Below are positions 1,834-43,810 of a stretch of DNA of 64,000 nucleotides, piece after piece. A program made the position numbers and the translations under genes. This DNA is from Candidatus Kapaibacteriota bacterium. Its GTDB lineage: Bacteria; Bacteroidota; Ignavibacteria; OLB7. The number at the start of each line of letters is the position of its first letter. The stretch's first letter is position 1. Location: assembly GCA_048594725.1 (NCBI GenBank), contig JBMDXA010000018.1:10055-74054 (forward strand). Direction: 5' to 3'. The notes beneath the pieces are model-generated. The model saw nothing but the letters and a program-made list of their open reading frames with translations. It was not told the origin of the DNA and searched no databases.

Positions 1834-2576
1834 TGGACGCAGCAGCGGACCGCAGCGGCCGGACCGATGGACTCCGGGAGAACCGGCCGGATGAGGGCCT
1901 CCCGGCTCTTCCCCCGTTCCCCCCGGCACTCCGGGAGCGGAACGTGGAACTGCGTGCCGAGCGTCTTACCAGGCGATTCGGCCTTCGCACCATCTTCTCC
2001 GATCTCTCCTTCACCCTGGGCTCCGGGGATATCCTCGCCATCACCGGGCGCAACGGCTCCGGCAAATCCACCCTTCTGAAGATCCTGGCAAACGCTGCGG
2101 AACACTCCTCCGGCTCGGTACGCTGGAGCCTGGAGGGGAACGCGCTGGACGCCGAACGCCTCCCCGCGCAACTCGGCTATGTGGCCCCCTACCTCCAGCT
2201 CTACGGCGAATTCGCCGCCTGGGAACATGTGGAGCTATTGCAGGAGATGCGCGGCCTCTCGTTCGATCCCGAACGGGCCTCCCTCCTGTTCGAATTGTTC
2301 GGCCTGGGCTCGCGCCGCAACGAACCGATCGAGACCTACAGCTCCGGGATGATGCAGCGGGTGAAGTTCATCTGCGCGCTGATCCATCATCCCTCCCTTC
2401 TTTTTCTGGATGAGCCGATGAGCAATCTGGACGTGCAGGGAATAGCCACCATGCGCGCCCTGATCGGACACGAAAGCGCCGGCCGGATCACGATCATCGC
2501 CACCAACGAGGAGGAGGATGTGGAATTGTGCACGAAGATGCTGTCGGTGGAGAGAAAAGGGCGGATGACTTCGTAA
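1830..2576 (+). CDS. ABC transporter ATP-binding protein, CcmA-like
   Basis: Walker A GRNGSGKST. Degenerate signature YSSGMMQRV. Walker B LLFLDEPMSNLD. Overall resemblance to the CcmA-type ATPase layout (TFTLGSGDILAITG...). The ATG at 1830 overlaps the upstream TGA (ATGA coupling). The true start may be an internal codon about 38 aa downstream. Confidence 0.7.
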   Translation: MMDAAADRSGRTDGLRENRPDEGLPALPPFPPALRERNVELRAERLTRRFGLRTIFSDLSFTLGSGDILAITGRNGSGKSTLLKILANAAEHSSGSVRWSLEGNALDAERLPAQLGYVAPYLQLYGEFAAWEHVELLQEMRGLSFDPERASLLFELFGLGSRRNEPIETYSSGMMQRVKFICALIHHPSLLFLDEPMSNLDVQGIATMRALIGHESAGRITIIATNEEEDVELCTKMLSVERKGRMTS

Positions 2577-2653
2577 TACGAGCGTTCGTGGCCGTACGGC
2601 AATTACCCGATTACCGTACCATTCCCGCAGAACGGCGCCGTACCACGAACTCT

Positions 2654-2685
2654 CCCCCCAATCGAAAATCGAAAATCGAAAATCC
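2654..2685. repeat. Copy of dispersed C-run + (AATCGAAAATC / CGAAAAT heptamer) intergenic repeat
   Basis: ccccccAATCGAAAATCGAAAATCGAAAATcc, lying between the convergent ABC ATPase and MlaD genes. It directly abuts the MlaD stop codon (rc tca at 2687-2689). Confidence 0.6.
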
Positions 2686-15474: not shown

Positions 15475-15505
15475 GGGAATTTTCGATTTTCGATTGACGA
15501 TTTCA
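15475..15505. repeat. Copy of the CGAAAAT-heptamer repeat family inside the efflux operon
   Basis: ggggAATTTTCGATTTTCGATTgaCGATTTC, in the 111-bp gap between the ATPase stop and the permease start. Confidence 0.5.
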
Positions 15506-17702: not shown

Positions 17703-17826
17703 GCTGATATAGGACTGAATGCTTGGTGCTAGGTTCTTGTATGTAGTACTTGCTGCCTGAAAAAACCGCCGGGGATGAGCGCGGGGAAAGGGCCGGTTGT
17801 CCGTTCGAGGGCCTGACCACAATCTT

Positions 17827-17959
17827 CCCCAATCGAAAATCTCTCCCCAATCGTCCCCCTCTTCCCAATCGAAAATCCAAAATCGAAAATCGAAAATTCC
17901 CCCTCTTCCAATCCTCCCTCTTCCCAATCGAAAATCCAAAATCGAAAATCGAAAATCCC
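17827..17959. repeat. Largest block of the CGAAAAT-heptamer repeat family (about 50-bp unit duplicated)
   Basis: ccccAATCGAAAATCtctccccaatcgtccccctcttcccAATCGAAAATCCAAAATCGAAAATCGAAAATtccccctcttccaatcctccctcttcccAATCGAAAATCCAAAATCGAAAATCGAAAATccc. It fills most of the tolC-macA intergenic region and abuts the tolC stop (rc tca at 17960-17962). Confidence 0.8.
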
Positions 17960-19312
17960 TCACTCTCCCACCTGGTAGCGGATCTCGAAGATCGCCATGC
18001 GGTAATTGAACACCGCGTTCACCTGGTTGATCTGGGCGGTAAGGTACTGGTTGTTTGCCAGAAGGTAATCCGAATAACTTCCCGCTCCCAGCCTGAAGCG
18101 CTCGTCGGAGGCGTAGCGGCTCTGGCGGGTGGCGGCCACCGCCTTCTCGGCCGCGCGCAACTGCCGCTCGGCCCCTTCCAGGCGTGCGATCGACTGCTGA
18201 AGCTGCGAGCGCGCATCAAGCTCCAATCGTCTCAACTCTATCTCCGCCGACTGGCGTTGCGCCTCGGCAAGCTCCACCTGTTCGCTGGTACGGAACCCGT
18301 CGAACGGGGTGAACTGGAAATTGAGACCGAACTGGGTGTTGGCGCTTCCATCGGTTGCACCGGCCTTCTGCCAGTACCAGCCGAGCGATGTGGAGATGGT
18401 GGGATAATACCCGGAGCGCGCCACGGTGACGGAGCTTTTGGCCGCCTCCACCCGCAGCCGCGCGGCCTGCAGATCGGCACGGGTACGCCGCTGCGATTCC
18501 AGCATCATCTCCAGCGTTCCGAACTGCCCCCTGGTACGGGTCATCTCGGCCGAATCGATGCTGTTGGCAAGCCCCTCGGAGGAGAGCTGCACCTGCGTAG
18601 CCGGATCATAATTCAACAGAAGCTGAAGGTTGTTGCGCGCTATCAGCGCATCGGTGCGGGACTGCTCCAGCGAAAGCTCCGCATTGGCGACCTCCGCCTC
18701 CTGCGAGTAGACCACGCCGATCTGCGCCGCCCCCGCATCGACCAGCGCGCGGTTCTGCGCAAGCCGCTCGCCGGCCAGCTCCAGATCGGCCTCCCGTATC
18801 TCGATAAGCTGCTCGGCGCGCAGCGCGTTCAGAAAGGCGCTCCGTGCCTGCCAGCTTACATCCTGGCGGGTGCGCGCAAGGCTCTGCAGCGAGGCATCGA
18901 ACGATGCACGGGCGTTGCTGTAGCTGGCGGTGCGATTGAACCCGTCGAAGAGCACCAGGCTGGCGCCGGCCGAAGCATCGTAGCTGTAATCGGGACGGCC
19001 GGTCTGAAGGGGGATTCCCTGCACGATCACCGTGGGATCATCGCTGAGCTGCTTGGCGTAACCGCTGTTGATGCTGATCTGCGGAAGGAACGCGCCGAAG
19101 GCACCGGTCACCCGCGCCGAGGAGGTCTCCACCTGCGACTGCGAGAGCGCAACCGAGAGATTCCGTTCCAGCGCAAGCTCCACGGCCTGATCGATCGTGA
19201 GGGTTCTGGGAGGCCCGCCACCCGGCACCTGCGAGAATGCCCCGGCGGAACCTGCTACTATACCTATCGCAAGAAGAAAAGCCTGTGCGGCTCGTGTTGG
19301 TCGGTCCATCAT
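17960..19312 (-). CDS. TolC-family outer membrane efflux protein
   Basis: Signal peptide MMDRPTRAAQAFLLAIGIVAGSAGAFSQ. ...LTIDQAVELALERNLSVALSQSQVE... and internally duplicated coiled-coil/beta-barrel repeats typical of TolC/OprM. Confidence 0.85.
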   Translation of the reverse strand: MMDRPTRAAQAFLLAIGIVAGSAGAFSQVPGGGPPRTLTIDQAVELALERNLSVALSQSQVETSSARVTGAFGAFLPQISINSGYAKQLSDDPTVIVQGIPLQTGRPDYSYDASAGASLVLFDGFNRTASYSNARASFDASLQSLARTRQDVSWQARSAFLNALRAEQLIEIREADLELAGERLAQNRALVDAGAAQIGVVYSQEAEVANAELSLEQSRTDALIARNNLQLLLNYDPATQVQLSSEGLANSIDSAEMTRTRGQFGTLEMMLESQRRTRADLQAARLRVEAAKSSVTVARSGYYPTISTSLGWYWQKAGATDGSANTQFGLNFQFTPFDGFRTSEQVELAEAQRQSAEIELRRLELDARSQLQQSIARLEGAERQLRAAEKAVAATRQSRYASDERFRLGAGSYSDYLLANNQYLTAQINQVNAVFNYRMAIFEIRYQVGE

Positions 19313-20177
19313 GGTGTGGCCTTACGGGATGGTTCGCAAAGTGTTACGCCCATCATGCCGGGAGGTACGATTCGTTCGTATGATTTTATGCGGTGGATAC
19401 AGCAGCCCCCCGCTCGCCGGGGAACGAGGTGGCATCTGCGCTCCGTGCCCGCCGGGGCCGGATGGGTGATATGCGGGCGGGTACGCGCCGATAGCCCGGC
19501 ATCAGGAAACGAAGGCTCCCGGCCAGGCTATATGAATGGCTGTAGATCTAGCTCCCCTACCCCGTGCAAAACTACGAGATTTCAGCGGACTGCATGGCGG
19601 GCAGGCCGGCTATCCGTTATCTGCACTATAGACAGAGGACTACTCACAACGGAGCGATCTTCCGAGCGGCGGGTACGTGCACACCATGACAGAACACCAG
19701 GATGCATCGGGAGCGGCCGGTATAAGTAGACCGGTCCCCTGCATGCGGCTTCCGTCCGTCATGGATATGACGATTCCCTGCTCCTGGCTGCATGGGGCCA
19801 TGGCGGCACGGGAACGTGCTGGCAATCCGGCATGATCGCATCAATCCGGTAGCGGGCGCCGTACTGACAGGGATCGGCAAGGTCCGATAACGGGTCTCCT
19901 GTGACACAGGTTCCTGGTAACGATGATCTGCGTACGATCATTGTTATCAGCGGAACCGGGCGGGGTCACCGGCTGACGTTCGATCGATGAAGGATGTTCA
20001 CGATCCGGCCGTGCATCAACCACATGGGGAGCACTGCTCGTTGGATTGTAAAGAGCTGATTGAGTTCGAGAGGGAGTTACTGCATCGGGAGTGTGTACCG
20101 GTTGGCGGCGTATCCGGTCACGTTTTCGCCGTAGATATCATGGACCGAGCCGAGACATCGAGACAAGACCCGATGAC

Positions 20178-20372
20178 TCATGCAACGTTCCAGCGACGGC
20201 GCGAGCTGTTGCGGCTCATGGAGCGATATCCGCAGAACGTGTTCTTGCAGCGGTGTCCGTCCTTCTTGGCGGCTTCCATCATAAGGCTGTGCTCGCCGCA
20301 CTTCGGGCAGACGTCATAAACGTTCATGTGGAGCTTGGAATGCTTCTCGGTGTTGAAATTGTTCTGCTGCAT
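20178..20372 (-). CDS. Small zinc-ribbon protein (CxxC...CxxxxC), hypothetical
   Basis: MQQNNFNTEKHSKLHMNVYDVCPKCGEHSLMMEAAKKDGHRCKNTFCGYRS... Strongly GC3-biased codons, unlike the surrounding low-GC DNA. AGGAGT sits 8 nt upstream of the ATG. The mirror ORF 19987..20319(+) has poor codon usage and is rejected. Confidence 0.4.
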   Translation of the reverse strand: MQQNNFNTEKHSKLHMNVYDVCPKCGEHSLMMEAAKKDGHRCKNTFCGYRSMSRNSSRRRWNVA

Positions 20373-20679
20373 CGTTGGTTGACTCCTGAATCTGATTCGT
20401 AGTATCTGTTCTGATAACTCTGATTTGCTTGTTGGAAACAGCATGAATTGCTGCTCTACAGATAAATAGAACCAAAAGCCGGGCCAAAACTTTTGAAAGG
20501 GGGAGACAGATGATGAAAGCAGACCGGGTTGTAAAGGCGGAATATGCCGGAAAGCGCCTCTGACGGGCCGGAAAGGGGCCTGAAGACCGGTTTTTCCCTC
20601 CGCGTGTGCGGATTTCGGAGGATGAGCCCGGCGCAGCGGGATTCAAGAGCTTTTTTGGATGGAATGGGCCAAAAACGAA

Positions 20680-20707
20680 GAATCCCCCCCGGAACCGGAG
20701 GGGATTC
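20680..20707 (-). terminator. Rho-independent terminator of the E1 alpha/beta dehydrogenase gene
   Basis: GAATCCCC-cccggaaccgga-GGGGATTC. On the minus strand it is followed by TTCGTTTTTGG. It lies 24 nt downstream of the stop at 20731. Confidence 0.5.
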
Positions 20708-20730
20708 GTATGTTTTGCCTGCGATTTCGT

Positions 20731-22875
20731 TTAGAACGCAATCAGCTCTTTCGACTTGGAATAGATGTCATCCGCGTTCAGCAGGATAGCCCGTTCCAGA
20801 ACCGGGGAGAAGCCGACCGGCGTTTCCCTGCTTCCGAGACGGAACACCGGGGCATCCAGCTCGCGGAAACAGTTGGCCGAGATGATCCCCGCCACCTCCC
20901 CGCCGATGCCCCCCAGCACACGATCCTCGTGCGCGATCAGCACCCGGCTGGTCTTGCGAACCGTTGCCACGATCGCCTCCTCATCCAGCGGCTTCAGCGA
21001 GCGAAGATCGAGGACCTCGACTTCGATCCCCTCGGCGGCCAGCTTCTCGGCGGCCTGCAGGGCAAGATGCACCGCATTGCCGTAGGCGATGATGGACATA
21101 TGGCGTCCCTCGCGGCGCACCCGCGCCGAGCCGAACGGCACTTCGAATCCCTCCGGGATCGGGGCCTTGGCCCAGCCGTGATTGTACAGGAACTTCGGCT
21201 CCAGGAACACCGACATCCCGCGCGAACGAAGGCAGGTGCGGAGCAGGCCGGCGGCATCATCGGCGAACGCCGGATAGACGATCCTCATCCCCGGAAGAGG
21301 GAGCAGCGACGCCTCGATGTTCTGCGAATGATAGAGGCCGCCGGTGATATACCCGCCGGAGGCGATACGAACCGTGACGTTGGGGGAGAACTGCCCACGC
21401 GTGCGCCAGTATTCATGCCCCATCTCCACGCACTGCTCCATGGCCGGCCAGAAGTAATCGGCGAACTCCGCCCCTTCCACCAGCACCCGGATGTTGTCGT
21501 TGAAGCGGCTGAAGCCGTTGGCCGTGCCGACGATATAATCCTCGGCGATCGGGGCGTTGTGCACCCGCGCGCGGCCGAACTCCTGCTGCATCCCCTTGGA
21601 GACGTTGAAGATGCCCCCCTTGTCGCGGGTGGCGACATCCTGTCCCCACATGAACGTATCGGGGTTGTGGCGGAACTCCTCCTTCATGGTGGCGTTCAGC
21701 GACTGCAACAGGGTCATCTCCTCCCCGCTCCCGGTGCGGTTCTCCCTGGCCGGGTACGGATCAGCGATCAGGAAGTCCTTGTAGCTCTCCATCGTCGGGT
21801 CGGGCATGGCCTCCCCCTGATCGGCCGCGGCGAACATCTCGGCCTTGTTCTCCTTCTCGATGGCGGCCAGCTGCTCTTCGGTGGCGATGCCATCGTTCAG
21901 AAGAAGCGCGCGGAGCTTGCGGACCGGGTCCTGCTCGCGGGCCTTCCCCAGCTCATCCTCGGAGCGGTAGAGCTCGTGGCGGTCGGAGTTGGAATGCGAG
22001 CCGATACGGACGCACTGCGCGTGCACCATCGCCGGCCCCTCGCCGCTCCGGATATAGGCTATCGCCTCCTGCATACCGCGCCAGGAGTCCAGCACATCGG
22101 TGCCGTCCACCTGGATGATCTTCAGGTTGGGGAAGCCGCGGAAGTTATCGGAGATGACCGGTGTGGGGAACGACTCCTCGATCGGCACGGAGATGCCGTA
22201 GCCGTTGTTCTGGATCACGAAGACCACCGGGTACCTGTTGGTGCAGGCGCCGTTGACGGCCTCGTAGAAATAGCCCTCGGCACAGGCCGACTCGCCGCTG
22301 GAGTAGAAGCTGATGGCGTCCGACTTGTAGTACTGGATGGCCTTGGCGGTTCCCACGGCCTGCGGCGCATGGTTGCCGGTGGCGCTGGAAACGTTCTGGA
22401 TGCCGATCTCCGGCTTGGCGAAGTGGTTCGACATATGACGGCCACCGCCGGCTACATCCCCATCCTTCGACAATCCGTTCAGGATGATCTCAAGCGGCGT
22501 CAGCCCTGCGGCCAGGCAGGTCATCAGGTCGCGATAGTAGGGGAAGAGGAAATCCTTCTTCTGGCGGAACGACGCCCCGAGCGCGAGCTGAATACCTTCA
22601 TGCCCTGCGCATGGCGCGTGGTAACTCCACCCTTTTGCCTGCTTCAGATAGTTGGCGGCCTTCTCGTCGAGGATACGGCCGAGGTGCATCAGACGATACC
22701 ACCCGATCAGGGTGGTGTTGTCCGGGCGGGAATCGGCAGATGCAGGGGCTCCATTACCGCCGTTGACGGCAGCGGCCTTGCGCTGCGCCGCCCGTACCGG
22801 CTTGGCTTCCCCCCCGTTCTTCTGCTCTATCTCGCTCTTGGGCTTGCTTTTGGCTTTCGGTTGACTGGCACTCAT
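20731..22875 (-). CDS. Fused 2-oxoacid dehydrogenase E1 component, alpha and beta subunits (TPP-dependent)
   Basis: N-terminal half is E1-alpha-like (YRLMHLGRILDEKAANYLKQ...; TPP-binding region GNGAP../...NNGYGISVP). C-terminal half is E1-beta/transketolase-like (...IAYGNAVHLALQAAEKLAAEGIEVEVLDLRSLKPLD). Single 714-aa ORF. Confidence 0.85.
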   Translation of the reverse strand: MSASQPKAKSKPKSEIEQKNGGEAKPVRAAQRKAAAVNGGNGAPASADSRPDNTTLIGWYRLMHLGRILDEKAANYLKQAKGWSYHAPCAGHEGIQLALGASFRQKKDFLFPYYRDLMTCLAAGLTPLEIILNGLSKDGDVAGGGRHMSNHFAKPEIGIQNVSSATGNHAPQAVGTAKAIQYYKSDAISFYSSGESACAEGYFYEAVNGACTNRYPVVFVIQNNGYGISVPIEESFPTPVISDNFRGFPNLKIIQVDGTDVLDSWRGMQEAIAYIRSGEGPAMVHAQCVRIGSHSNSDRHELYRSEDELGKAREQDPVRKLRALLLNDGIATEEQLAAIEKENKAEMFAAADQGEAMPDPTMESYKDFLIADPYPARENRTGSGEEMTLLQSLNATMKEEFRHNPDTFMWGQDVATRDKGGIFNVSKGMQQEFGRARVHNAPIAEDYIVGTANGFSRFNDNIRVLVEGAEFADYFWPAMEQCVEMGHEYWRTRGQFSPNVTVRIASGGYITGGLYHSQNIEASLLPLPGMRIVYPAFADDAAGLLRTCLRSRGMSVFLEPKFLYNHGWAKAPIPEGFEVPFGSARVRREGRHMSIIAYGNAVHLALQAAEKLAAEGIEVEVLDLRSLKPLDEEAIVATVRKTSRVLIAHEDRVLGGIGGEVAGIISANCFRELDAPVFRLGSRETPVGFSPVLERAILLNADDIYSKSKELIAF

Positions 22876-23164
22876 AGTTTATATTCCGCCCTTCGAGGCG
22901 CCTAGTTCTCGATTGACACGTGAAGATCTTAATATACGGTTCCCTCTCTGGACGGCCATATGAAGGGCTTAATTTGTTACATGAGCGAACAAAACGAGCG
23001 GCGGCGGGGCGAACAGAGTAAAAAAAGAGGGCACCGGCGCTCAACACCGGGACATCTTCATCGTCATTTCCAGACCACACGCCCGGCCGTTACGCCGGGT
23101 ATACCGGGCCCGCGGCGGTTTCCGTGGAGATTTTCTTTCAACCTTCAGCATTCCCTGCATCCGT

Positions 23165-25288
23165 ATGAGGCATTTCAGACTACTGTGCTCCGCGCTCCTG
23201 ATTGCTCTGTGCTCCTCTCTGGCGCTGATGGCGCAGGATTCGCTCCGCTACTACCGCCTCTACCTGAAGGATAAAGGGACCCCTGAAAGAACTCTCTCCC
23301 CTGCCGATCCCTTCTACAAGCAGGCAACCGCCCATCTTACCGGCCGGGCCCTCGCCCGCCGCGCCAGGGTGCTGCCGGCCGGGAGCCTCGTCTCCACGAG
23401 CGATCTTCCCTTGTACCCCCCCTATCTAGAGGCCATCGCCGCGGCCGGAGCCGAGGTGCGGCAGACCTCCCGCTGGCTGAACACCGCCATGGTCCTGGCC
23501 GACTCGGCAACCTACGAGCGGCTCCGCTCCCTCCCCTTTCTCGATTCGGCGCGGATGATGAAGGCGCGCCGGCGCACTACCGATATCCCGTTCGGCAAGG
23601 GAAGCTCCCTCGTGCGGATACAGACTTCTCCCCCCCCTGCCGATCCCCGTTCCTTCTGCATCACCGATCACTACGGGCGCGCCGACTATCAGAACCGGAT
23701 GACCGGCATCGACAAGGGACATATGCTCGGTATCGCCGGCGAGGGGGTGCTGGTGGGAGTGCTGGACGCCGGGTTCGACTGGCGCGGGCATGCCGCGCTC
23801 CGGCATCTGAATGTGATCGCCGAACATGACTTCGTCTTCAACGACAGCAATGTGGCCGACGAGCCGGGGGAGTTCGGAGCCGAGTCGCACGGCACCACCG
23901 TGATGGGGATGATCGGGGGATATTACCAGAACGTTCTGATAGGAGGTGCCCCGCACGCCAGCTTCATCCTTGCCAAGACCGAGGATATCCGGAGCGAACG
24001 GCAGGTGGAGGAGGATAATTTCGTGGCCGGCCTGGAGTGGATAGAATCGATGGGGGCGGATGTGACCAACACCTCGCTCGGCTATACCACGTTCGATGCC
24101 CCGGAACGCTCCCACGACTATAGCGAACTGGACGGGCGCACCGCCCATGCCTCGCGCGGGCTGAACCACGCCGTATCGCTCGGGGTGGTCTGCGTGGTGG
24201 CCGCCGGCAACGAGGCCGGCAGATACAACTACGTCAGCGTCCCGGCCGAGGCCGATTCGGCGATCGCCGTGGCGGCGGTGGACTCCAGCGGCAGAGTGGC
24301 CTATTTCAGCAGCAGGGGATTCGGCGAGATGACCGTGCCGGGACGGGTCCGGCTGAAGCCGGATGTTGCCGCGTTCGGCGTGGGCAACTGGGGCGCCGAT
24401 CATAGCGATACCTTCAGAATCCTGACCGGCCAGGGAACATCCTATGCCTCGCCGATGGTGGCCGGGGCGGTGGCGATGATCCTTTCGGCACGGCCCGGAC
24501 TTACCCCCTACCAGGTGCGGGAACTTCTGTACAAGACCTCCAGCCGCGCCACCGATCCGGATACCGCCGTGGGACACGGGGTGGTGAATGTGGGAAGAGC
24601 CCTTCAGGAATTGAGCCGGAGCGCGCCGGTGGTGGGACTGCCGAAGGTGATGATGTTCGGCGATCATCTCTCCATCATCGCCGGAACCCTGTTCGAGGGG
24701 GGCATGCCGATGGGGCAGTTCCGGAACGATCTCCCCCTCTCCTCCTATCTGGCCTTGACGGTGGGGGTTCCCGGCGGGCCCGATACCACCATACTGCAAC
24801 CGCAGCCCCTGGCCGGGGTGGCACGATGGTACGTTCCGGCAACCGTGCGCGGAATCAGCCTTACCCCGGAAGACAGCGTGGACCTGATGATCCGCTATGC
24901 CTCCACCGGCGAGATCGTCCGGCAGGGACGCTTCGGCCTGGGAGCATCGCAGGGCACCTTCCAGGTGGCGCAGGGGGTTCCGGATCTGGTCACAAGCACG
25001 CTCTGCGAGATACCGGCCATGCCGGGCACATCGGTAGCGGTGGCGGTGCCGAACCCGTTCCGCCAGTTCACCATGATCGGCTTCGAGACCGGCGATAGAG
25101 CCACCGTCTCGCTGACGGTCTACAACGCGCTCGGCCAGGAGGTGGCCCGGCTTATCGACCAGCGGGAGATGGACCCCGGATTCCATACCAGCTACTTCCA
25201 GCCCGCCGGGCTGCCGGCCGGCTCCTACTACTACATGCTCCAGGTGGGAGAGGATGTGCGAAGCCAGCAGGTGATTTATACGAAGTAA
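23165..25288 (+). CDS. Subtilisin-like serine peptidase (S8) with Por/T9SS-type C-terminal domain
   Basis: Signal peptide MRHFRLLCSALLIALCSSLALMAQ. Catalytic-triad regions: VGVLDAGFD (Asp), ESHGTTVMGMIGG (His), GTSYASPMVAGAVAMI (Ser). C-terminal ...SYYYMLQVGEDVRSQQVIYTK. Confidence 0.85.
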   Translation: MRHFRLLCSALLIALCSSLALMAQDSLRYYRLYLKDKGTPERTLSPADPFYKQATAHLTGRALARRARVLPAGSLVSTSDLPLYPPYLEAIAAAGAEVRQTSRWLNTAMVLADSATYERLRSLPFLDSARMMKARRRTTDIPFGKGSSLVRIQTSPPPADPRSFCITDHYGRADYQNRMTGIDKGHMLGIAGEGVLVGVLDAGFDWRGHAALRHLNVIAEHDFVFNDSNVADEPGEFGAESHGTTVMGMIGGYYQNVLIGGAPHASFILAKTEDIRSERQVEEDNFVAGLEWIESMGADVTNTSLGYTTFDAPERSHDYSELDGRTAHASRGLNHAVSLGVVCVVAAGNEAGRYNYVSVPAEADSAIAVAAVDSSGRVAYFSSRGFGEMTVPGRVRLKPDVAAFGVGNWGADHSDTFRILTGQGTSYASPMVAGAVAMILSARPGLTPYQVRELLYKTSSRATDPDTAVGHGVVNVGRALQELSRSAPVVGLPKVMMFGDHLSIIAGTLFEGGMPMGQFRNDLPLSSYLALTVGVPGGPDTTILQPQPLAGVARWYVPATVRGISLTPEDSVDLMIRYASTGEIVRQGRFGLGASQGTFQVAQGVPDLVTSTLCEIPAMPGTSVAVAVPNPFRQFTMIGFETGDRATVSLTVYNALGQEVARLIDQREMDPGFHTSYFQPAGLPAGSYYYMLQVGEDVRSQQVIYTK

Positions 25289-25424
25289 AAGGGTCAGTGG
25301 TCAGTGCGCGGGCTGCGCCCGCTGTCCGTGGTCCGTGGCTGGTGGAGCAGGGGCTTGCGGCAACTGGGGAGAAGATCTTCTCTCCAACTCCGGACCCCGA
25401 ACTCGGGGGCTCCAGAACTATTCT

Positions 25425-25456
25425 CCCCGATCGAAAATCCAAAATCGAAAATCTCC
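25425..25456. repeat. Copy of the CGAAAAT-heptamer repeat family
   Basis: ccccgATCGAAAATCCAAAATCGAAAATctcc, between the S8 peptidase and the ABC exporter genes. Confidence 0.5.
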
Positions 25457-25672
25457 AGGAACGATTTGTATCCCTCCCCCGTTCCTGCTTCCCGTAGATT
25501 CCCGCAAGAGCGGGCTAGTCCCTGCCGGGGGCCGGCTCCGGAGCCATAGAGTTCCTCTCCGGCCGGGTGCCGGCATGGCGCCCCTGCTACTGAACGCGGC
25601 GGATACACCTTCATTCAATCCCCCGGCGCCGCGCCGCGATGGCCGCGGCCGTGGGGATATCATACAGGCACG

Positions 25673-27517
25673 ATGTCCGATTCCTCAAAGACACCCGAGA
25701 CGGGGAGCGAAGAGAAAAAAGGGTTCGATTTCAAAAAACTGAAAATCACCCGGGGCTCCATCGATGGCGCCCGGTTCCTGTTCCGCTACCTTCGCCCCTA
25801 CCGCTGGAAGTTCATTCTCGCCCTGGTCGCGCTTCTGTTCTCGTCGCTCGCCGGACTTGTCTTTCCGGGTCTCACCGGAAGGCTCGTGGATGCTACCACC
25901 GGGAGCGATCCGGACCGCCTTTCGCTGAACCAGATCACCCTCATCCTGATAGCGGCGCTCTTTGCGCAGTCGGCATTCAGCTACATCCGGAGCTACTTCA
26001 TCACCGAGGTGGCCGAGCGTACCCTCTCGGATCTCCGCCACGATCTGTACGGCCGCATCCTCCGCCTTCCGATGGAGTTCTTCCACAAGAACAGGGTCGG
26101 GGAGCTTACCAGCCGCATCACCACTGATGTGGGGCAGATCCAGTACACCATCACCACCGCCCTGTCGGAGCTGATCCGCCAGGTGGTGATCCTGATAGGC
26201 GGCATCGCGCTGGTGGCCTATACATCGCCGCAGCTGACGCTGGTGATGCTGGTGGCAGTGCCGCTGCTGGTGCTGATGGCACTGGTCTTCGGACGGCTGA
26301 TCCGCAAGGCGAGCAAGCAGCTGCACGATCTCCACGCAAAGCTGAACACCGTGGCGGAGGAGACCTTCCAGGGGATCAGCGCGGTAAAGGCGTTTACCGC
26401 GGAGAGCCGGGAAACCGCCCGCTACAGCCGGACGCTCGGGGAGCTTGTGGGCGTTGCGCTCCGGGTGGGACGCGCACGCGGTGCGTTTATCGCGCTCATC
26501 ATCTTCATCCTGTTCGGCGGCATCGTCGGGGTGATCTGGTACGGCGGCCATATGGTGATGGATGGAACGCTGACGATAGGCTCGCTTACCTCGTTCGTCC
26601 TGTACGCCCTGTTCGTGGGAGGGGCGATGGGGAGCTTCGCCGATCTGTACGGATCGGTGCAGAGCGCCATGGGCGCCAGCGAGCGGGTGCGGGATCTGCT
26701 CCAGAGTTCCGCCGAGGATATCGACCGCTCGCTGGGTGCGATCCCGGCGCGCGGGCATATCCAGTTCCGCGATATCTCCTTTGCCTACCCCTCCCGCCCC
26801 GATCTTCCGGTGCTTCAGGGGATCACGCTCGATGTCCCGGCCGGAACCAGCCTGGCGCTGGTGGGCCCCTCGGGAGCGGGCAAGTCCACCGTGGCCGGCA
26901 TCCTGATGCGGTTCTACGAGCCCACCTCCGGCGAGCTGGTGGTGGACGGCCGCGCGGCCGTGGATTATACGCTGCTGGACTTCCGCTCATCGGTGGCGAT
27001 CGTGCCGCAGGATGTGATACTCTTCGGCGGCACCATCGCCGAGAACATCGCCTACGGCAACCCCGATGTGGGAGAGGAACGGATCAGAGAGGCCGCCCGC
27101 CTGGCGAACGCCGCCGATTTCATCGAGTCGTTCCCGGAGGGATACCAGACGGTGGTGGGTGAACGGGGAGTGCAGCTTTCCGGCGGCCAGCGCCAGCGCA
27201 TAGCCATAGCCAGGGCGATCGTGAAAGACCCCGCGATCCTGATCCTGGACGAGGCCACCAGTTCGCTCGACTCGGAATCCGAGCGCCTGGTGCAGGATGC
27301 GCTGGACAAGGTGATGAAGAACCGCACCACGCTGGTGATAGCCCACCGCCTCAGCACCATCCGCAATGCCGACCGCGTGGCGGTGCTGCGCCAGGGAACC
27401 ATCATCGAGAACGGCAGCTACGATGAGCTGATCGCCGCCGGAGGAGTATTCGCCCGCCTGGTGTCATTGCAGAGCCGGGGCGAGATCGACGACTTCCGGC
27501 TGACCATCGACGAGTGA
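25673..27517 (+). CDS. ABC exporter, fused permease/ATP-binding protein (MsbA-like)
   Basis: Six-TM domain, then NBD with Walker [26 protein letters not shown], Walker B ILILDEATSSLD and H-loop LVIAHRLSTI. Confidence 0.9.
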   Translation: MSDSSKTPETGSEEKKGFDFKKLKITRGSIDGARFLFRYLRPYRWKFILALVALLFSSLAGLVFPGLTGRLVDATTGSDPDRLSLNQITLILIAALFAQSAFSYIRSYFITEVAERTLSDLRHDLYGRILRLPMEFFHKNRVGELTSRITTDVGQIQYTITTALSELIRQVVILIGGIALVAYTSPQLTLVMLVAVPLLVLMALVFGRLIRKASKQLHDLHAKLNTVAEETFQGISAVKAFTAESRETARYSRTLGELVGVALRVGRARGAFIALIIFILFGGIVGVIWYGGHMVMDGTLTIGSLTSFVLYALFVGGAMGSFADLYGSVQSAMGASERVRDLLQSSAEDIDRSLGAIPARGHIQFRDISFAYPSRPDLPVLQGITLDVPAGTSLALVGPSGAGKSTVAGILMRFYEPTSGELVVDGRAAVDYTLLDFRSSVAIVPQDVILFGGTIAENIAYGNPDVGEERIREAARLANAADFIESFPEGYQTVVGERGVQLSGGQRQRIAIARAIVKDPAILILDEATSSLDSESERLVQDALDKVMKNRTTLVIAHRLSTIRNADRVAVLRQGTIIENGSYDELIAAGGVFARLVSLQSRGEIDDFRLTIDE

Positions 27518-27520
27518 GGC

Positions 27521-27559
27521 GATTTACGATTTCGGATTTTCGATTGGCGATTTTCGATT
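27521..27559. repeat. Copy of the CGAAAAT-heptamer repeat family abutting the ABC exporter stop
   Basis: GATTTaCGATTTCGGATTTTCGATTggCGATTTTCGATT begins 4 nt after the TGA at 27515-27517. Confidence 0.5.
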
Positions 27560-27714
27560 ATAGACCTGATAGAGCCAACCACGCCAGATGCATCACGCGA
27601 AGGCGCAAAGAAGATGTATTCCTTTGCGCCTTCGCGCCTTCCCGTGGGATTCTTCAAAGATTGGCGATTGTGAGGAGAGTCCGTGGCGGTTCCAACTGAA
27701 CGGCTGGTTCCATC

Positions 27715-28266
27715 TCACTCATGCTCCGGGCAGCGGCCGCTCAGGTTTCTGGTGGTCTCGCGGCAGTACTCTCCTGCGGAACTGCGGTAGGAGCAGCGCA
27801 CCGCCCGCGCCCGATCCCGTCCCCACGCCCCCCGCTCCATCACGCGGGCTTCGGCAGCCGCTACGAAGAACTGTTCGCGCGACCCATGGGCCGAGATTGT
27901 GGTGGGAGCGGCATAGCCATCTCGCAGCATCTGCACGTTCACCATCATGCCGTCGGCAAAGACGAAGCGTTCCTCCTGCGGGTGATCCAGCGTCGTATCC
28001 CGCACCAGGAACACCTGCCGGCCGCCGATAAGCTCGCCCAGATGTTTCTTTGCGTCGGCCTCGGTGATGGCGAGCGTGCGCGGAGGAAACCGGAGGCCCA
28101 GCAGCACGATCCTCCGCCCGCCCGCGGTGATGAAGGTGGTGCCGTTGACCACCTCGGCCACGGTGGCGGTATCCCTGACGGGCTCCTGTGCATGCAGCCG
28201 GCCGGCCTGGGCCAGCCACATCATTCCCATGAACATCGCGGTGATGGTGGCGTTTCGAAAGTTCAT
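27715..28266 (-). CDS. Secreted thermonuclease (SNase-like) family protein
   Basis: Signal-like N-terminus MNFRNATITAMFMGMMWLAQA. VVNGTTFITAGGRRIVLLGLRFPP...AKKHLGELIGGRQVFLVRDTTLDHPQEERFVFADGMMVNVQMLRDGYAAP resembles staphylococcal nuclease. Confidence 0.7.
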   Translation of the reverse strand: MNFRNATITAMFMGMMWLAQAGRLHAQEPVRDTATVAEVVNGTTFITAGGRRIVLLGLRFPPRTLAITEADAKKHLGELIGGRQVFLVRDTTLDHPQEERFVFADGMMVNVQMLRDGYAAPTTISAHGSREQFFVAAAEARVMERGAWGRDRARAVRCSYRSSAGEYCRETTRNLSGRCPEHE

Positions 28267-30665: not shown

Positions 30666-30872
30666 CTGCCAGTCGTCAATCGAAAATCTTCAAGGCCGGC
30701 CAAAATCGTCATTCCCGCCGAATAGGGAAAATGTTCGTAGCATTGCCGGACGTTCCAGATGTGTTATCTTTGGGCATTCCCAAACGGCCGGGCGCTGCTG
30801 CATCATGGCGACACGATAGAGAGTTTCGGAACGTCGGTACAAGGCAGCGCTCAGCAGTCGCACGGTATATCC

Positions 30873-30954
30873 GGAGGGCTCGCATAATGGTATTGCAGCG
30901 GTCTTGAAAACCGCCGGGCGCAAGCCTGTGGGGGTTCGAGTCCCTCGCCCTCCG
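30873..30954 (+). tRNA. tRNA-Ser (anticodon UGA)
   Basis: Acceptor stem GGAGGGC/GCCCTCC (7 bp perfect). D-arm GCA-TAATGGTAT-TGC. Anticodon arm GCGGT-CTTGAAA-ACCGC, so U33 and anticodon TGA. Long variable arm with GGGC-GCAA-GCCT. T-arm GGGGG-TTCGAGT-CCCTC. Discriminator G. CCA not encoded. Confidence 0.8.
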
Positions 30955-32583: not shown

Positions 32584-33306
32584 GTGGAAGAAGTACTTCG
32601 AGCACTCTACAGACTACAACAGATCGATCTGGAGCTCGATGAGCTGAATGACGGAGGGGGCGATCTGCCGGCCGAGGTCGATCAGCTTCAGAAGAAAATC
32701 GATGAGCTCTCGGCCGCCATGGCGGTTGAAGAGGGGAAGCTCCGCGATCTCCGTGAGTCGCGCACCGGCGCCAACAACGCCATCAACGATATGCGCGAGC
32801 GGGTGAAGATGCTGAACGAACGGCTTCGTACGGTGCGCAACAACAAGGAATACGAGGCCACCACCGCCGATATCGCTTCGGCCGAGGAGGAGCTTCTTGC
32901 CATGGAACGCTCCACCACCACGGTCAATACCCAGGAGGCGATGCTGATCCGCGATATCGAAACGATCAACCGGCAGCGCGAGGAACTGGTCAAGGAGATG
33001 GACGAGAAGAACGATACTCTCACCACCATCCGCGATACGCACGCCGATGAGATCAACTCTCTTCGCACCGCCCGCGAGGAAGTGGCATCCCAGATCAGCC
33101 CCGATCTGCTGAAGCGCTACCGCCATATCCGCACCGCTCACGACGACGCAGTGGTGAAGGTGCGCAAGGGAGCCTGCAACGGCTGCTACCGCGCCATCCC
33201 CCCGCAGACGCTCGTGGAGATGCGCCGCTCCGAACAGCTCTTCAGCTGCGAACACTGCGGCCGTATCATCGTCGATGAGGAAATCGCCGCATCGGTGACG
33301 GTGTAG
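32584..33306 (+). CDS. C4-type zinc-ribbon domain protein (COG1579/DUF164-like), coiled-coil
   Basis: Long coiled-coil (ALYRLQQIDLELDELN...), then C-terminal CNGCYRAIPPQTLVEMRRSEQLFSCEHCGRIIV. This is the classic genomic partner of Nif3. Confidence 0.8.
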   Translation: MEEVLRALYRLQQIDLELDELNDGGGDLPAEVDQLQKKIDELSAAMAVEEGKLRDLRESRTGANNAINDMRERVKMLNERLRTVRNNKEYEATTADIASAEEELLAMERSTTTVNTQEAMLIRDIETINRQREELVKEMDEKNDTLTTIRDTHADEINSLRTAREEVASQISPDLLKRYRHIRTAHDDAVVKVRKGACNGCYRAIPPQTLVEMRRSEQLFSCEHCGRIIVDEEIAASVTV

Positions 33307-33365
33307 TCAGTAGTCAGTAGTCAGTAGTCAGTAGTCAGTAGTCAGTAGTCAGTAGTCAGTAGTCA
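33303..33365. repeat. Heptanucleotide microsatellite (GTAGTCA)x9
   Basis: Nine perfect tandem copies starting inside the TAG stop codon of the zinc-ribbon gene (stop 33304-33306). The complement GACTACT is the core of the ACGGACTAC(T) REP-like motif. Confidence 0.9.
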
Positions 33366-33549: not shown

Positions 33550-33998
33550 CTCCGGAGTGTGTCGGGCAGTCGCTCGCCGATCATTCGGCGGGAGGAACGT
33601 CCGAACTCCATAGGGCAACGTGCCAGCTAACGGCTGGGCGCCCAATCCCGCGCCGGAAACGGCCGGGAGAGGCGACGGAAAGTGCAACAGAAAGGATACC
33701 GCCCCGTTCCGGCCCGCAGCTGCAATACCAGATGCGGGCCGGGACGGGGTAAGGGTGAAATGGCGAGGTAAGAGCTCACCGCATCCCGGGCAACCGGGAT
33801 GGCAGTGCAAACCCCACGTGGAGCAAGGCCAAATAGGGTGTCGTCATGGAGCTGCCCGCTCCCGATCCTCCCCTCGCGGGAAAAGATCACGGCACCGGGT
33901 AGGCTGCTAGAGGGCGCGGGCGACCGCGCTCCCAGAGAAATGACTGCCTCCACCACCAGGTGTAGACAGAATTCGGCGTACAGACACGCTTCGGAGTA
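33550..33998 (+). ncRNA. rnpB: RNase P RNA, bacterial type A
   Basis: Conserved blocks: GGAGGAACGTCCGAACTCCATAGGGCAA (P4 5' strand), GTGCAACAGAAAGGATACCGCC, GGGGTAAGGGTGAAATGGCGAGGTAAGAGCTCACC, GGAGCAAGGCCAAATAGGG, ACAGAATTCGGCGTACAG (P4 3' strand). P1 pairing CCGGAGTGTGTC (33552-33563) with GACACGCTTCGG (33983-33994). Ends are approximate to within about 10 nt. Confidence 0.85.
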
Positions 33999-43770: not shown

Positions 43771-43810
43771 TCCCCAATCGAAAATCGAAAATCGCCAATC
43801 GAAAATCCCC
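43771..43810. repeat. Copy of the CGAAAAT-heptamer repeat family abutting the ppk stop
   Basis: ccccAATCGAAAATCGAAAATCGccAATCGAAAATccccc, immediately followed by the ppk stop codon (rc cta at 43811-43813). Confidence 0.6.

What the first reader, a model, noticed from the sequence alone, without database searches (positions are those of the whole stretch)
27512..27559. Four heptamer-repeat copies start within 0-5 nt of a stop codon, all in the same orientation relative to the gene
For mlaD (stop 2687), tolC (stop 17960), the MsbA-like exporter (stop 27517) and ppk (stop 43811), the repeat begins within 0-5 nt of the stop. On the coding strand it reads GG-GATTTTCGATTTTCGATT downstream of the stop in every case. 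The GAUUUUC units would give a U-rich 3' UTR without a stem-loop. This placement suggests a role in transcription termination or attenuation, or in 3'-end stability. Alternatively it reflects insertion-site preference immediately after stop codons. The remaining four copies do not follow this rule, so the pattern is suggestive rather than proven.
Basis: partly seen in the sequence, partly recalled or inferred. Interest (0 to 1): 0.55.

Follow-up and report, generated by a model that had tools for sequence, protein, structure and literature searches.

The report
Polar GATT heptamer arrays abutting stop codons
Short runs of a 7-base repeat (GATTTTC and variants) sit directly after the stop codons of four genes here, always in the same direction, and the same rule holds in many bacterial phyla, so this is a real but functionally unsolved kind of gene-boundary punctuation and not a transcription terminator.

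Summary
Four Pfam-confirmed genes (MlaD, TolC-like, ABC exporter, PPK1) are each followed, 2-3 nt after the stop, by 4-6 units of GATT-N3 that read GAUU on the mRNA. The chance of this is about 1e-5.

The rule generalises. In 120 genome loci from many phyla, 30 Pfam-confirmed genes end 15 nt or less before such an array in this orientation, against 1 in the opposite orientation. An independent metagenome sample gave 17:0.

Before start codons the arrays mostly read AAUC. Paired copies form hairpins with one polarity (48:4) that span stop to start inside operons, including ribosomal-protein operons.

The arrays are unstructured, match no Rfam family, and do not look like intrinsic terminators or rut sites. 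They were gained in this lineage and are absent in relatives at 76-87% protein identity. A second assembly at 97% protein identity keeps them, with GATT cores unchanged (0/36) and N3 positions scrambled (13/23).

They are a new sequence variant of the known, unexplained class of intergenic heptamer repeats (Xanthomonas GGGAATC, Nostoc GGGGATT, cyanobacterial STRR, Beggiatoa TAACTGA).

My best guess (0.35) is an mRNA-level, ribosome-footprint-sized trailer or linker at translation boundaries.

The parts
27520..27559 (+). Six-unit degenerate GATT-N3 array. It begins 2 nt after the TGA stop (27515-27517) of the ABC exporter gene 25673-27517(+).
27596..27636 (+). Strong stem-loop (GCGAAGGCGCAAAGG...CCTTTGCGCCTTCGC) about 36 nt downstream of the exporter array, with no U-tract after it.
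   Evidence: fold; not reported by the terminator scan
2660..2685 (-). Four-unit array (GGATTTTCGATTTTCGATTTTCGATT) that starts 1 nt after the TGA (2687-2689) of mlaD 2687-3640(-). It is followed by the tail GGGGGGAGAG (2650-2659).
2559..2659 (-). Long, very stable stem-loop immediately after the mlaD array and tail. It lies between the convergent mlaD gene and the ABC ATPase gene 1830-2576(+).
   Evidence: MFE -58.8 kcal/mol, z = -4.4
17926..17958 (-). Five-unit array that starts 1 nt after the TGA (17960-17962) of the TolC-like gene 17960-19312(-). It is followed by the purine tail GGGAAGAGGGAGGA... (17900-17925).
17821..17899 (-). Second, near-identical array plus tail (a roughly 59-nt tandem duplicate of array and tail), followed by degenerate GATTGGGG units. 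It lies in the roughly 257-nt spacer between tolC and macA (macA ATG at 17702-17700).
43776..43808 (-). Five-unit array (GGATTTTC GATTGGC GATTTTC GATTTTC GATT) that starts 2 nt after the TAG (43811-43813) of ppk 43811-46213(-). The tail GGGGAGAAGG follows. The array sits at the head of a roughly 354-nt spacer before the VTT-domain gene (ATG at 43456-43454).
15477..15503 (+). Inverted-orientation array, read as AAAUCGUCAAUCGAAAAUCGAAAAUUC on the minus-strand operon mRNA. It lies 29 nt upstream of the macB-permease ATG (15447) and 56 nt after the ATPase stop (15559-15561).
25429..25454 (-). Inverted-orientation array, read as GAUCGAAAAUCCAAAAUCGAAAAUCU on the plus-strand mRNA. It lies in the 384-nt spacer between the S8 peptidase stop (25288) and the ABC exporter start (25673), and is preceded by UUCUCCCC, the complement of the tail.
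30678..30689 (-). A 1.7-unit fragment (AGATTTTCGATT) between tRNA 30873-30954(+) and recQ(-). It does not follow the stop rule.

Best explanation
The arrays belong to a lineage-specific expansion of a widespread family of polar heptanucleotide repeats. The unit is a GATT core plus 3 variable bases, usually in 4-5 units (about 25-35 nt). The source organism is a Kapabacteria-like member of the Bacteroidota.

I propose that they act on the mRNA at translation boundaries, not on transcription.

Read as GAUU-N3, the array is laid down directly after the stop codon. There it forms a U-rich trailer about one ribosome footprint long. The main unit and the window's variants carry no stop codon and no ATG or GTG (some variants have TTG), and the array has no structure of its own.

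This trailer separates the terminating ribosome from whatever follows. That may be a strong hairpin (mlaD, exporter), the Shine-Dalgarno sequence of the next cistron (the GGGRRGR tail in related loci), or a long spacer.

Read in the opposite sense (AAUC-N3), the same element lies just upstream of start codons as an A-rich leader.

When both orientations occupy one spacer they pair into a hairpin whose base touches the upstream stop and the downstream start. A terminating ribosome would then melt the hairpin and expose the next start, which is translational coupling.

Shown here: position, polarity, length, lack of stop codons and of ATG/GTG, lack of self-structure, positions inside operons, the stop-to-start hairpin geometry in other phyla, the lineage-specific gain, and retention with conserved GATT cores in a second assembly at 97% protein identity.

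Inferred: that the arrays are transcribed, that the ribosome interacts with them, and that they have any effect on expression.
For: Window: four of four stop-adjacent copies read GAUU on the mRNA, with chance about 1e-5.

Polarity after stops in other genomes:
- In 120 genome loci from many phyla, 37 ORFs end 15 nt or less before an array that reads GAUU, and 30 of them have Pfam domains. Ten ORFs end before an array that reads AAUC, and only 1 has a Pfam domain.
- A replicate on 120 metagenome loci gave 17:0, and 9 of 10 tested ORFs were Pfam-confirmed.
- The 30 nt after 437 other stop codons in the same loci show no T-over-A bias (A 26.4%, T 24.2%). General base composition therefore does not explain the polarity.

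Polarity before starts: arrays within 30 nt upstream of a start read AAUC 51 times and GAUU 19 times.

Paired arrays:
- GATT arm-loop-AATC arm outnumbers the reverse order 48 to 4.
- They lie mostly between co-directional genes, with the stop 11 nt or less before the 5' arm and the start 4-28 nt after the 3' arm. Thirteen are complete stop/start cases, one is convergent and one divergent.
- An example is rpsJ|rplC|rplD in Chloracidobacterium, where the 3' arm runs right up to the rplC ATG.

Tandem ABC_sub_bind paralogues: the TGA overlaps the first GATT, 4-5 units follow, then the SD, then the ATG.

Array properties:
- The dominant unit GATTTTC has no stop codon, ATG or GTG in any of the six frames (read directly from the sequence).
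- Length peaks at 4-5 units and drops sharply above that.
- RNA folds of the window arrays have z-scores near 0.

Evolution: both orthologous arrays (after ppk and after tolC) are kept in a second assembly at 97% protein identity. There are 0 changes in 36 GATT-core positions and 13 changes in 23 N3 positions, against 14-15% divergence at synonymous sites. P(0 of 36) is about 0.003.
Against: - There are no expression data, so transcription, ribosome contact and any phenotype are all inferred.
- A pure spacer would not need a conserved GATT core.
- The window arrays have no nearby inverted partner, so the coupling-hairpin part of the model does not apply here directly. The candidate partners in the same transcription units are 2.1-2.4 kb away.
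- Hairpin arms are no more complementary at the N3 positions than shuffled partners (0.683 against 0.644 +/- 0.025).
- Hairpins are no more stable on the sense strand than on the antisense strand (10 against 7, p = 0.45). RNA-level selection on the hairpin is therefore unproven.
- Relatives at 76-87% protein identity do without the arrays altogether.
- Composition-matched heptamer repeats are about as common in viral contigs, many also abut stops, and they show the same 4-5 unit peak.
Confidence: 0.35

Rival explanations
1. The arrays are function-less simple-sequence repeats. Heptamer units arise and turn over by polymerase slippage and unit exchange. Copies survive only where, and in the orientation in which, they do no harm, so the pattern reflects tolerance and not a role.
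For: - Relatives at 76-87% protein identity have no arrays in 77 kb of partly syntenic DNA.
- N3 positions change about 3-4 times faster than synonymous sites, which fits unit turnover.
- Other heptamer repeats of unrelated sequence also sit on or next to stops. Examples are GTAGTCA x9 and GGTCAGT x2 in the window and TTCAACA x4.7 in L385.
- Six composition-matched heptamer repeats are similarly frequent in viral contigs (18-85 loci each) and have similar length distributions.
- Rehm et al. 2015 (PMC4692102) cite an earlier proposal that links heptamer excess to polymerase slippage.
Against: - Tolerance alone does not predict a start within 0-5 nt of the stop.
- It does not predict a 30:1 and a 17:0 polarity when sequence after other stops has no A/T skew.
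- It does not predict retention of both orthologous arrays with unchanged GATT cores at about 15% synonymous divergence.
- It does not predict enrichment after ribosomal-protein and EF-G genes: 5 of 30 confirmed genes.
Confidence: 0.3
2. The array is a tandem binding or cleavage platform on single-stranded RNA. It would be bound by a sequence-specific factor that recognises GAUU every 7 nt (for example a cold-shock-domain, RRM, S1 or Sm-like protein), or cut by RNase E/G. This would set mRNA decay or intercistronic processing right after the stop.
For: - The 4-nt core is conserved while the 3-nt spacer varies, both between the two assemblies and across phyla.
- The arrays are unstructured.
- Polarity is tied to the transcript.
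- From my own knowledge, not tested here: GA|UUU fits the RNase E consensus RN|WUU, cold-shock domains bind roughly 7-nt T/U-rich sites, and HutP reads triplets at 7-nt spacing.
- MacGregor 2015 (PMC4679880) proposed S1, Csp or CsrA as binders of TAACTGA repeats.
- Rehm et al. report that transcripts start or end at the G4-forming repeats more often than at control repeats in Xanthomonas RNA-seq.
Against: - No candidate protein was identified.
- The family is spread over phyla with different RNA-binding repertoires.
- Hairpin forms would hide single-stranded sites.
- The same arrays are used in the opposite sense before start codons.
Confidence: 0.15
3. The array plus its flanks (GG-(GATTNNN)n-GATT-GGGGAGA) is a small non-autonomous mobile or copy-paste element. 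Its insertion machinery prefers the first bases after a stop codon.
For: - Five of the eight window copies, and L123, share the GGGRRGA tail, and most are preceded by GG.
- Array plus tail is duplicated as one unit after tolC.
- Presence or absence differs between close relatives. The arrays lie at the stop-proximal edge of enlarged spacers: about 354 nt against about 60 nt after ppk, and about 257 nt against 136 nt after tolC.
- The ppk stop codon keeps its ancestral position.
Against: - There are no terminal inverted repeats, no clear target-site duplication, and no linked transposase.
- Copies differ in unit number and in N3 sequence.
- In related loci the tail is simply the next gene's Shine-Dalgarno sequence.
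- Orientation follows the gene, on both DNA strands, which points to selection on the transcript and not to a DNA-level preference.
- The same arrays occur without the tail in many phyla.
Confidence: 0.12
4. The U-rich array terminates or attenuates transcription, or stabilises the 3' end of the mRNA.
For: - The arrays are U-rich and lie immediately after stops.
- Strong hairpins follow two of the four arrays.
- Rehm et al. saw transcript ends at G4-forming repeats more often than at control repeats in Xanthomonas.
Against: - The array precedes the hairpin instead of following it, and no hairpin-plus-U-tract is detected.
- Two of the four window copies, and most copies in other phyla, lie inside operons, including the S10, spc and str ribosomal operons.
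- Only 1 of 48 hairpins lies between convergent genes.
- Hairpin polarity is U-rich arm first (48:4).
- The composition is not rut-like. C is 1 in 7, G is at least 1 in 7, and a G-rich tail follows.
- An unstructured 3' tail would not block exonucleases.
Confidence: 0.08

Closest known systems
Heptameric GGGAATC repeats of Xanthomonas and GGGGA(C/T)T repeats of Nostoc (Rehm et al. 2015, PLoS One, PMC4692102)
   Same: - Tandem 7-nt units in the intergenic regions, with roughly four units preferred.
- A strong bias to lie next to or overlapping the stop codon on one strand, and on the opposite strand upstream of ORFs.
- Inverted pairs occur.
- They are most common between co-directional ORFs.
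- Length and sequence vary between close relatives.
- The function is unresolved.
- In register, both are also GATT+N3 units (GATTCCC and GATTGGG).
   Different: - The GATTTTC family has no G-tracts, so it cannot form G-quadruplexes, which was the property proposed to explain the earlier families. It nevertheless shows the same length preference and the same stop proximity.
- Here the mRNA after the stop reads GAUU, whereas in Xanthomonas it reads AAUC (GGGAAUC).
- The distribution here spans many phyla.
TAACTGA direct repeats of marine Beggiatoaceae, Cyanobacteria and Bacteroidetes (MacGregor 2015, PMC4679880)
   Same: - Intergenic heptamer direct repeats of 2-6 copies, placed within a few nucleotides of a translation boundary.
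- Present in ribosomal-protein operons.
- A patchy distribution across phyla.
- A post-transcriptional role has been proposed.
   Different: - TAACTGA carries stop codons and sits mainly just upstream of start codons.
- GATTTTC has no stop in any frame and, in its GAUU reading, sits just after stop codons.
Cyanobacterial STRR (short tandemly repeated repetitive) heptamers
   Same: Families of tandem heptanucleotides scattered in non-coding DNA. They are cited in Rehm et al.. My memory of the unit sequences was not tested.
   Different: The unit sequences differ. As far as I know, no stop-codon polarity rule has been described for them.
REP / BIME / REPIN elements of proteobacteria (from established knowledge)
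   Same: - Short interspersed extragenic repeats found after stop codons and inside operons.
- They occur as singlets and as inverted doublets that form hairpins.
- Their expansions are lineage-specific.
   Different: - Each REP unit is itself an imperfect palindrome with a GTAG head and is mobilised by a RAYT transposase.
- The units here are not palindromic. They are tandem 7-mers, and no RAYT link was found.
Intrinsic (Rho-independent) terminators
   Same: They lie downstream of stop codons and contain U-rich RNA.
   Different: The array has no stem. The U-rich part comes before any hairpin, not after it. The arrays are common inside operons.
Translational-coupling hairpins in polycistronic mRNAs (from established knowledge)
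   Same: In other phyla the paired arrays form a stem whose base lies within ribosome reach of the upstream stop. Its 3' arm abuts or covers the downstream start.
   Different: The hairpins are built from a generic repeat instead of gene-specific sequence. In this window the copies are unpaired.

Membership tests
Intergenic heptanucleotide simple-sequence repeats (Xanthomonas GGGAATC / Nostoc GGGGAYT / STRR class) | Head-to-tail tandem copies of a 7-nt unit | tested here: met
   TRF reports period 7 with 3.4-5.7 copies at seven window sites. Register analysis agrees.
Intergenic heptanucleotide simple-sequence repeats (Xanthomonas GGGAATC / Nostoc GGGGAYT / STRR class) | Located in non-coding DNA, many copies per genome, few units per copy (about 4 preferred) | tested here: met
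   All eight window copies are intergenic. Unit number peaks at 4-5. A whole-genome count was not possible.
Intergenic heptanucleotide simple-sequence repeats (Xanthomonas GGGAATC / Nostoc GGGGAYT / STRR class) | Strand-specific proximity to stop codons, with the opposite strand upstream of ORFs | tested here: met
   Four of four in the window. In other loci, 30:1 and 17:0 after stops, and 51:19 in the opposite sense before starts.
Intergenic heptanucleotide simple-sequence repeats (Xanthomonas GGGAATC / Nostoc GGGGAYT / STRR class) | G-quadruplex-forming G-tracts in each unit. This is specific to the Rehm et al. families and does not define the class. | tested here: not met
   The units GATTTTC, GATTTTG and GATTGAC have no G-tract. 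Only the purine tail is G-rich.
Intrinsic terminator | GC-rich stem-loop followed directly by a U-tract | tested here: not met
   The scan found none at the arrays. Array folds have z near 0, and where hairpins exist they follow the U-rich array.
Intrinsic terminator | Position at the end of a transcription unit | tested here: not met
   The tolC-macA and ppk-VTT copies lie between co-directional genes. Other phyla have copies in the rpsJ-rplC-rplD, rplF and fusA-tuf spacers. Only 1 of 48 hairpins lies between convergent genes.
Rho utilisation (rut) site | An unstructured stretch of 60-80 nt or more that is C-rich and G-poor | tested here: not met
   The units have one C and at least one G per 7 nt. 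The arrays are 25-40 nt long and are followed by a G-rich tail.
REP / REPIN elements | Each unit is an imperfect palindrome with a conserved GTAG head | tested here: not met
   The units are non-palindromic tandem heptamers.
REP / REPIN elements | An associated RAYT (Y1 transposase) gene in the genome | not testable with these tools
   Only 64 kb of the genome is available. No census of the whole genome was possible.
MITE (miniature inverted-repeat transposable element) | Terminal inverted repeats and a target-site duplication | tested here: not met
   The flanks are GG...GGGGAGA, not inverted repeats, and no consistent duplication is seen.
Translational-coupling hairpin | A stem base within ribosome reach of the upstream stop, with a 3' arm at or over the downstream start | tested here: inconclusive
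   This is met in other phyla, with 13 complete stop/start cases such as L018. It is not met in the window, where the copies are unpaired. Selection on the hairpin is unproven.
Any curated RNA family (Rfam 15) | A covariance-model match | tested here: not met
   No match on the arrays at the gathering threshold across the whole window, or at E up to 1 in 15000-28000.

The most novel reading that the evidence does not exclude
Heptamer arrays of the GATT-N3 type may be a general form of translation-boundary punctuation that evolved repeatedly. They would be ribosome-footprint-sized cis-elements read on the mRNA, either by the ribosome itself or by a widely conserved factor. The GAUU reading would mark 'just terminated' and the AAUC reading 'about to start', with paired copies coupling neighbouring cistrons. 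That would give one functional explanation for the long-unexplained excess of heptameric repeats in prokaryotic intergenic DNA, and it would replace the G-quadruplex explanation.
Probability: 0.15. Interest if true: 0.85.

Novelty: new variant of a known kind. Interest (0 to 1): 0.55.

Why it matters
Earlier work cited by Rehm et al. 2015 noted an excess of heptameric repeats in prokaryotic intergenic DNA. A handful of families have since been described, and none has an established function.

This family adds three things:
- It shows the same stop-codon proximity and the same 4-5 unit preference as the Xanthomonas and Nostoc repeats, yet it has no G-quadruplex potential. G4 formation is therefore unlikely to be the common denominator.
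- Its polarity rule is very clean (30:1 and 17:0 after stops, 48:4 for hairpin polarity) and holds across many phyla. That makes the question testable with simple invert, delete and recode experiments.
- Paired copies span exactly from stop to start inside essential, highly expressed operons. This points to translation or mRNA processing and away from transcription termination.

If the arrays are functional, they would be a cheap modular device for tuning operon expression. They would also be worth annotating, because their lack of stop codons makes ORF callers over-extend neighbouring genes. The macA and VTT ORFs in this window are examples.

Tried and rejected
- Full-text searches for the repeat sequence in several registers found nothing relevant.
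- Rfam at the gathering threshold and at E up to 1 gave no family on the arrays. The only weak hit was psaA inside the exporter gene, probably by chance.
- The sigma-70 promoter and terminator pattern scan found nothing at the arrays.
- An exact-protein look-up of the window PPK failed because my ORF start was too far upstream. This was solved through homologues.
- I tested whether GATTTTC is an exceptional repeat. It is not. Five composition-matched T4 heptamer repeats are about as frequent in viral contigs.
- I tested covariation of the N3 positions between hairpin arms and found no significant signal.
- I tested for a sense-over-antisense folding advantage, the G-U signature of RNA-level selection, and found none.
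- General T-richness after stop codons is rejected as the cause of the polarity.
- A simple greedy ORF caller was only about 70-75% right against called genes. I replaced it with Pfam checks and a dominant-ORF filter.
- Several ideas were considered from memory and dropped because the variant units or the organism range do not fit, or because they were untestable here. These were tRNA T-loop mimicry (TTCGATT), the H-NS nucleation motif, NusG TTNTTT pause sites, the CsrA GGA motif, Hfq ARN or AU5G sites, integron attC, a C-terminal degron produced by readthrough (every frame encodes DFRFSIF), and phase variation.
- Long-range pairing between GAUU and AAUC arrays of the same transcription unit (tolC operon; exporter 5' and 3' ends) is possible but cannot be distinguished from chance with eight copies.
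Full report
WHAT IS THERE

The window (about 61% G+C) contains eight copies of a tandem heptamer whose commonest unit is GATTTTC:
- 2660-2685(-)
- 15477-15503(+)
- 17821-17899(-)
- 17926-17958(-)
- 25429-25454(-)
- 27520-27559(+)
- 30678-30689(-), a fragment
- 43776-43808(-)

A 14-mer of two units with up to one mismatch occurs 12 times against 0.01 expected.

- MlaD, 2687-3640(-)
- an OEP/TolC protein, 17960-19312(-)
- an ABC_membrane+ABC_tran exporter, 25673-27517(+)
- polyphosphate kinase 1, 43811-46213(-)

On each coding strand the first GATT starts 2-3 nt after the stop codon. A random intergenic position and strand does this with p of about 0.02, so four or more of eight has a probability of about 1e-5. 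The one inaccuracy is that only two of the four copies read exactly GG-GATTTTCGATTTTCGATT. The ppk and exporter copies contain variant units.

ANATOMY

The conserved part of each unit is GATT, and the last three bases vary (TTC, TTG, GGC, GAC, TAC, TCG).

Five of the eight window copies continue into a purine tail of the form GGGRRGA after the last GATT or GATC, and most are preceded by GG.

After tolC, the array plus tail is duplicated in tandem as a unit of about 59 nt.

The dominant unit has no stop codon and no ATG or GTG in any of the six frames. This is read directly from the sequence.

Folded as RNA, the arrays have no structure beyond that of shuffled sequence (z between -1.7 and +1.1 for the array-containing 3' regions). 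The mlaD region is the exception, where a very stable hairpin follows the array (z = -4.4). A second strong hairpin lies about 36 nt after the exporter array.

No hairpin-plus-U-tract is found at any array, and no Rfam family matches.

THE SAME THING ELSEWHERE

The organisms include Bacteroidota, Acidobacteriota, Verrucomicrobiota, Planctomycetota, Cyanobacteria, Chloroflexota, Nitrospirota and others.

Units next to the exact seed keep G-A-T-T better (0.44-0.69 match) than positions 5-7 (0.25-0.45), so the family is GATT-N3 and not strictly GATTTTC.

I tabulated long ORFs that end 15 nt or less before an array:
- With the array reading GAUU on the ORF's strand, there are 37 ORFs, and 30 have Pfam domains.
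- With the array reading AAUC, there are 10 ORFs, and only 1 has a Pfam domain. Several of the other nine overlap a confirmed gene, and all nine are probably spurious.

The confirmed genes are functionally diverse. They include ribosomal proteins S10, L3, L21 and L6, and EF-G.

An independent sample of 120 metagenome loci, seeded with GATTTTCGATTGGGRRGR, gave 17 against 0 with a dominant-ORF filter. Nine of ten tested ORFs were Pfam-confirmed. Viral contigs lean the same way but weakly, 8 against 4.

The 30 nt after 437 other stop codons in the same loci have no T-over-A skew. The polarity is therefore a property of the arrays and not of the sequence that usually follows stops.

THE MIRROR RULE AND THE HAIRPINS

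Within 30 nt upstream of start codons the arrays mostly read AAUC on the mRNA, 51 against 19. The window's copy at 15477-15503, which lies 29 nt before the macB-permease ATG, fits this.

Where two arrays of opposite sense lie within 120 nt, the order GATT arm-loop-AATC arm outnumbers the reverse order 48 to 4, and 17 to 3 in the replicate.

These hairpins are very stable (median z = -5.2). They lie overwhelmingly between co-directional genes, with the stop 11 nt or less before the 5' arm and the start 4-28 nt after the 3' arm. Only one case is convergent and one divergent.

In a Chloracidobacterium contig they fill the rpsJ-rplC and rplC-rplD spacers. In the first spacer the 3' arm runs right up to the rplC ATG.

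In tandem ABC_sub_bind paralogues the TGA stop overlaps the first GATT. Four or five units follow, then a Shine-Dalgarno sequence, and then the ATG. In those loci the GGGRRGR tail is therefore the next gene's ribosome-binding site.

These positions inside operons are hard to reconcile with an obligate terminator, and the hairpin polarity is the reverse of what a terminator needs.

EVOLUTION IN THIS LINEAGE

PPK and TolC homologues place the window in a Kapabacteria-like member of the Bacteroidota.

A second assembly at 97% protein identity keeps arrays at the same places after ppk and tolC (L123, L383). All 36 visible GATT-core positions are identical, yet 13 of 23 N3 positions differ. Synonymous-site divergence in ppk is 14-15%, so P(0 of 36 changed) is about 0.003. 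The N3 positions change faster than neutral point substitution would allow.

Relatives at 76-87% protein identity have no GATT arrays in about 77 kb. Their spacers are also shorter: about 60 nt against about 354 nt after ppk, and 136 nt against about 257 nt after tolC.

In those relatives the same position may hold nothing, a palindromic hairpin that overlaps the stop (L124), or a different heptamer repeat that overlaps a stop (TTCAACA x4.7 in L385).

The arrays are therefore recent gains. They are retained once present, and their units turn over quickly.

WHAT IS KNOWN

Rehm et al. 2015 (PMC4692102) described heptameric GGGAATC repeats in Xanthomonas and GGGGA(C/T)T repeats in Nostoc. Their repeats are intergenic, prefer four units, and are strongly biased to lie next to or over the stop codon on one strand and upstream of ORFs on the other. 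Inverted pairs occur, and the repeats vary between close relatives. The authors attributed the four-unit preference to G-quadruplex formation and left the function open.

MacGregor 2015 (PMC4679880) described TAACTGA repeats just upstream of start codons, including in ribosomal-protein operons, and proposed a post-transcriptional regulator.

The present family is a new sequence variant of this class. I found no paper that contains its sequence. It cannot form G-quadruplexes, yet it shows the same length peak and the same stop proximity. Composition-matched control heptamers show the same length peak too. G4 formation is therefore unlikely to be the shared explanation.

A caution applies. GATTTTC repeats are no more frequent in viral contigs than five composition-matched heptamer repeats (44 loci against 18-85). 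Many of those controls also abut ORF ends. Part of the stop-proximity signal therefore belongs to heptamer repeats in general.

MECHANISM

I commit, at a confidence of 0.35, to an mRNA-level role at translation boundaries. In this model the array is a U-rich, structure-free trailer about one ribosome footprint long, free of stop codons and of ATG or GTG, placed directly after the stop. The same element in the opposite sense serves as an A-rich leader. Paired copies form stop-to-start hairpins that a terminating ribosome would open, which is translational coupling.

The geometry, polarity, length and operon context are shown. Transcription, ribosome contact and any effect on expression are inferred.

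The main weaknesses are these:
- A spacer needs no conserved GATT core.
- The window copies are unpaired.
- Two tests for RNA-level selection on the hairpins were negative.

The rivals are:
- tolerated slippage-born repeats with no function (0.30)
- a protein-binding or RNase-cleavage platform that recognises GAUU at 7-nt spacing (0.15)
- a small copy-paste element that prefers the site after a stop (0.12)

VERDICT

The finding is real and generalises. It belongs to a known but unexplained class, of which it is a new and unusually clean variant. Interest is 0.55.

Noticed in passing
window 33303-33365 (+): There is a perfect (GTAGTCA)x9 tandem repeat. Its first TAG is the stop codon (33304-33306) of the 240-aa ORF 32584-33306(+). 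That ORF is probably the Zn_ribbon_9 gene, judged by size and by synteny with L121, which also has the neighbouring NIF3-like gene. The unit puts a stop codon in all three frames on both strands. The repeat lies about 190 nt upstream of the RNase P RNA gene.
   Followed up: partly
window 25292-25306 and 25324-25338 (+): (GGTCAGT)x2 begins 4 nt after the TAA of the S8 peptidase gene (stop at 25288), and (GTCCGTG)x2 follows 18 nt later. In the second assembly at 97% protein identity (L383), the same position holds a different sequence that looks 7-nt periodic by eye. This suggests that heptamer repeats of several kinds gather right after stops in this lineage.
   Followed up: partly
window 33554-33996 (+) and 30873-30954 (+): Rfam finds a bacterial class A RNase P RNA (278.8 bits) and a tRNA gene.
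   Followed up: no
window 43457-43810 (-): The ppk-VTT spacer is about 354 nt, against about 60 nt in relatives at 87% protein identity. The extra DNA is G-rich and low in complexity, with several possible hairpins and recurring GGGGTCC/GGAGTC-like motifs. Because the array has no stop codons, the mechanical VTT ORF (43022-43690) is about 78 codons too long. The macA ORF (16323-17963) is over-extended in the same way.
   Followed up: partly
L124 3300-3345: In a relative at 87% PPK identity, the ppk TAG stop is overlapped by a palindromic hairpin (ATAGTGTAGTACGGCCCGGTTCGCACTACACTAT) in place of a heptamer array. Its GTAG-containing arms are reminiscent of REP elements.
   Followed up: no
L385 13608-13640: In a relative at 76% TolC identity, a (TTCAACA)x4.7 repeat overlaps the stop of the macB ATPase gene. 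This is the spacer that holds the inverted GATT array in the window.
   Followed up: partly
L414 1701-1790 (metagenome contig Ga0209701_10009603): In one ABC_sub_bind paralogue the A-rich (AATC) array lies inside the ORF. It is translated as ...SDNRKSKIENLK..., a charged N-terminal extension ahead of the signal-peptide core. In a sister copy the equivalent stretch ends in a stop and the gene restarts downstream. The arrays can therefore be recruited into coding sequence.
   Followed up: partly
L065 405-563 and 965-1165: Two of the four reverse-polarity (AATC...GATT) pairs found in the genome loci flank a 66-nt segment. That segment encodes the N-terminus MSDLKIALRQLLKNPGF... on the opposite strand, which is typical of MacB-like ADOP permeases. 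One of the arrays reaches 15 units.
   Followed up: no
window 27120-27281 (-): There is a weak Rfam hit to psaA RNA (24 bits against a gathering score of 50, E = 0.034) inside the exporter gene on the antisense strand. It is most likely a chance match.
   Followed up: no
window 3657-3668 (+): CGATGTACGATT, a two-mismatch 1.7-unit match, lies 17-28 nt upstream of the mlaD start. On the mlaD mRNA it reads AAUC-like, so mlaD may be flanked by opposite-sense repeat fragments. This is too weak to tell apart from chance.
   Followed up: no
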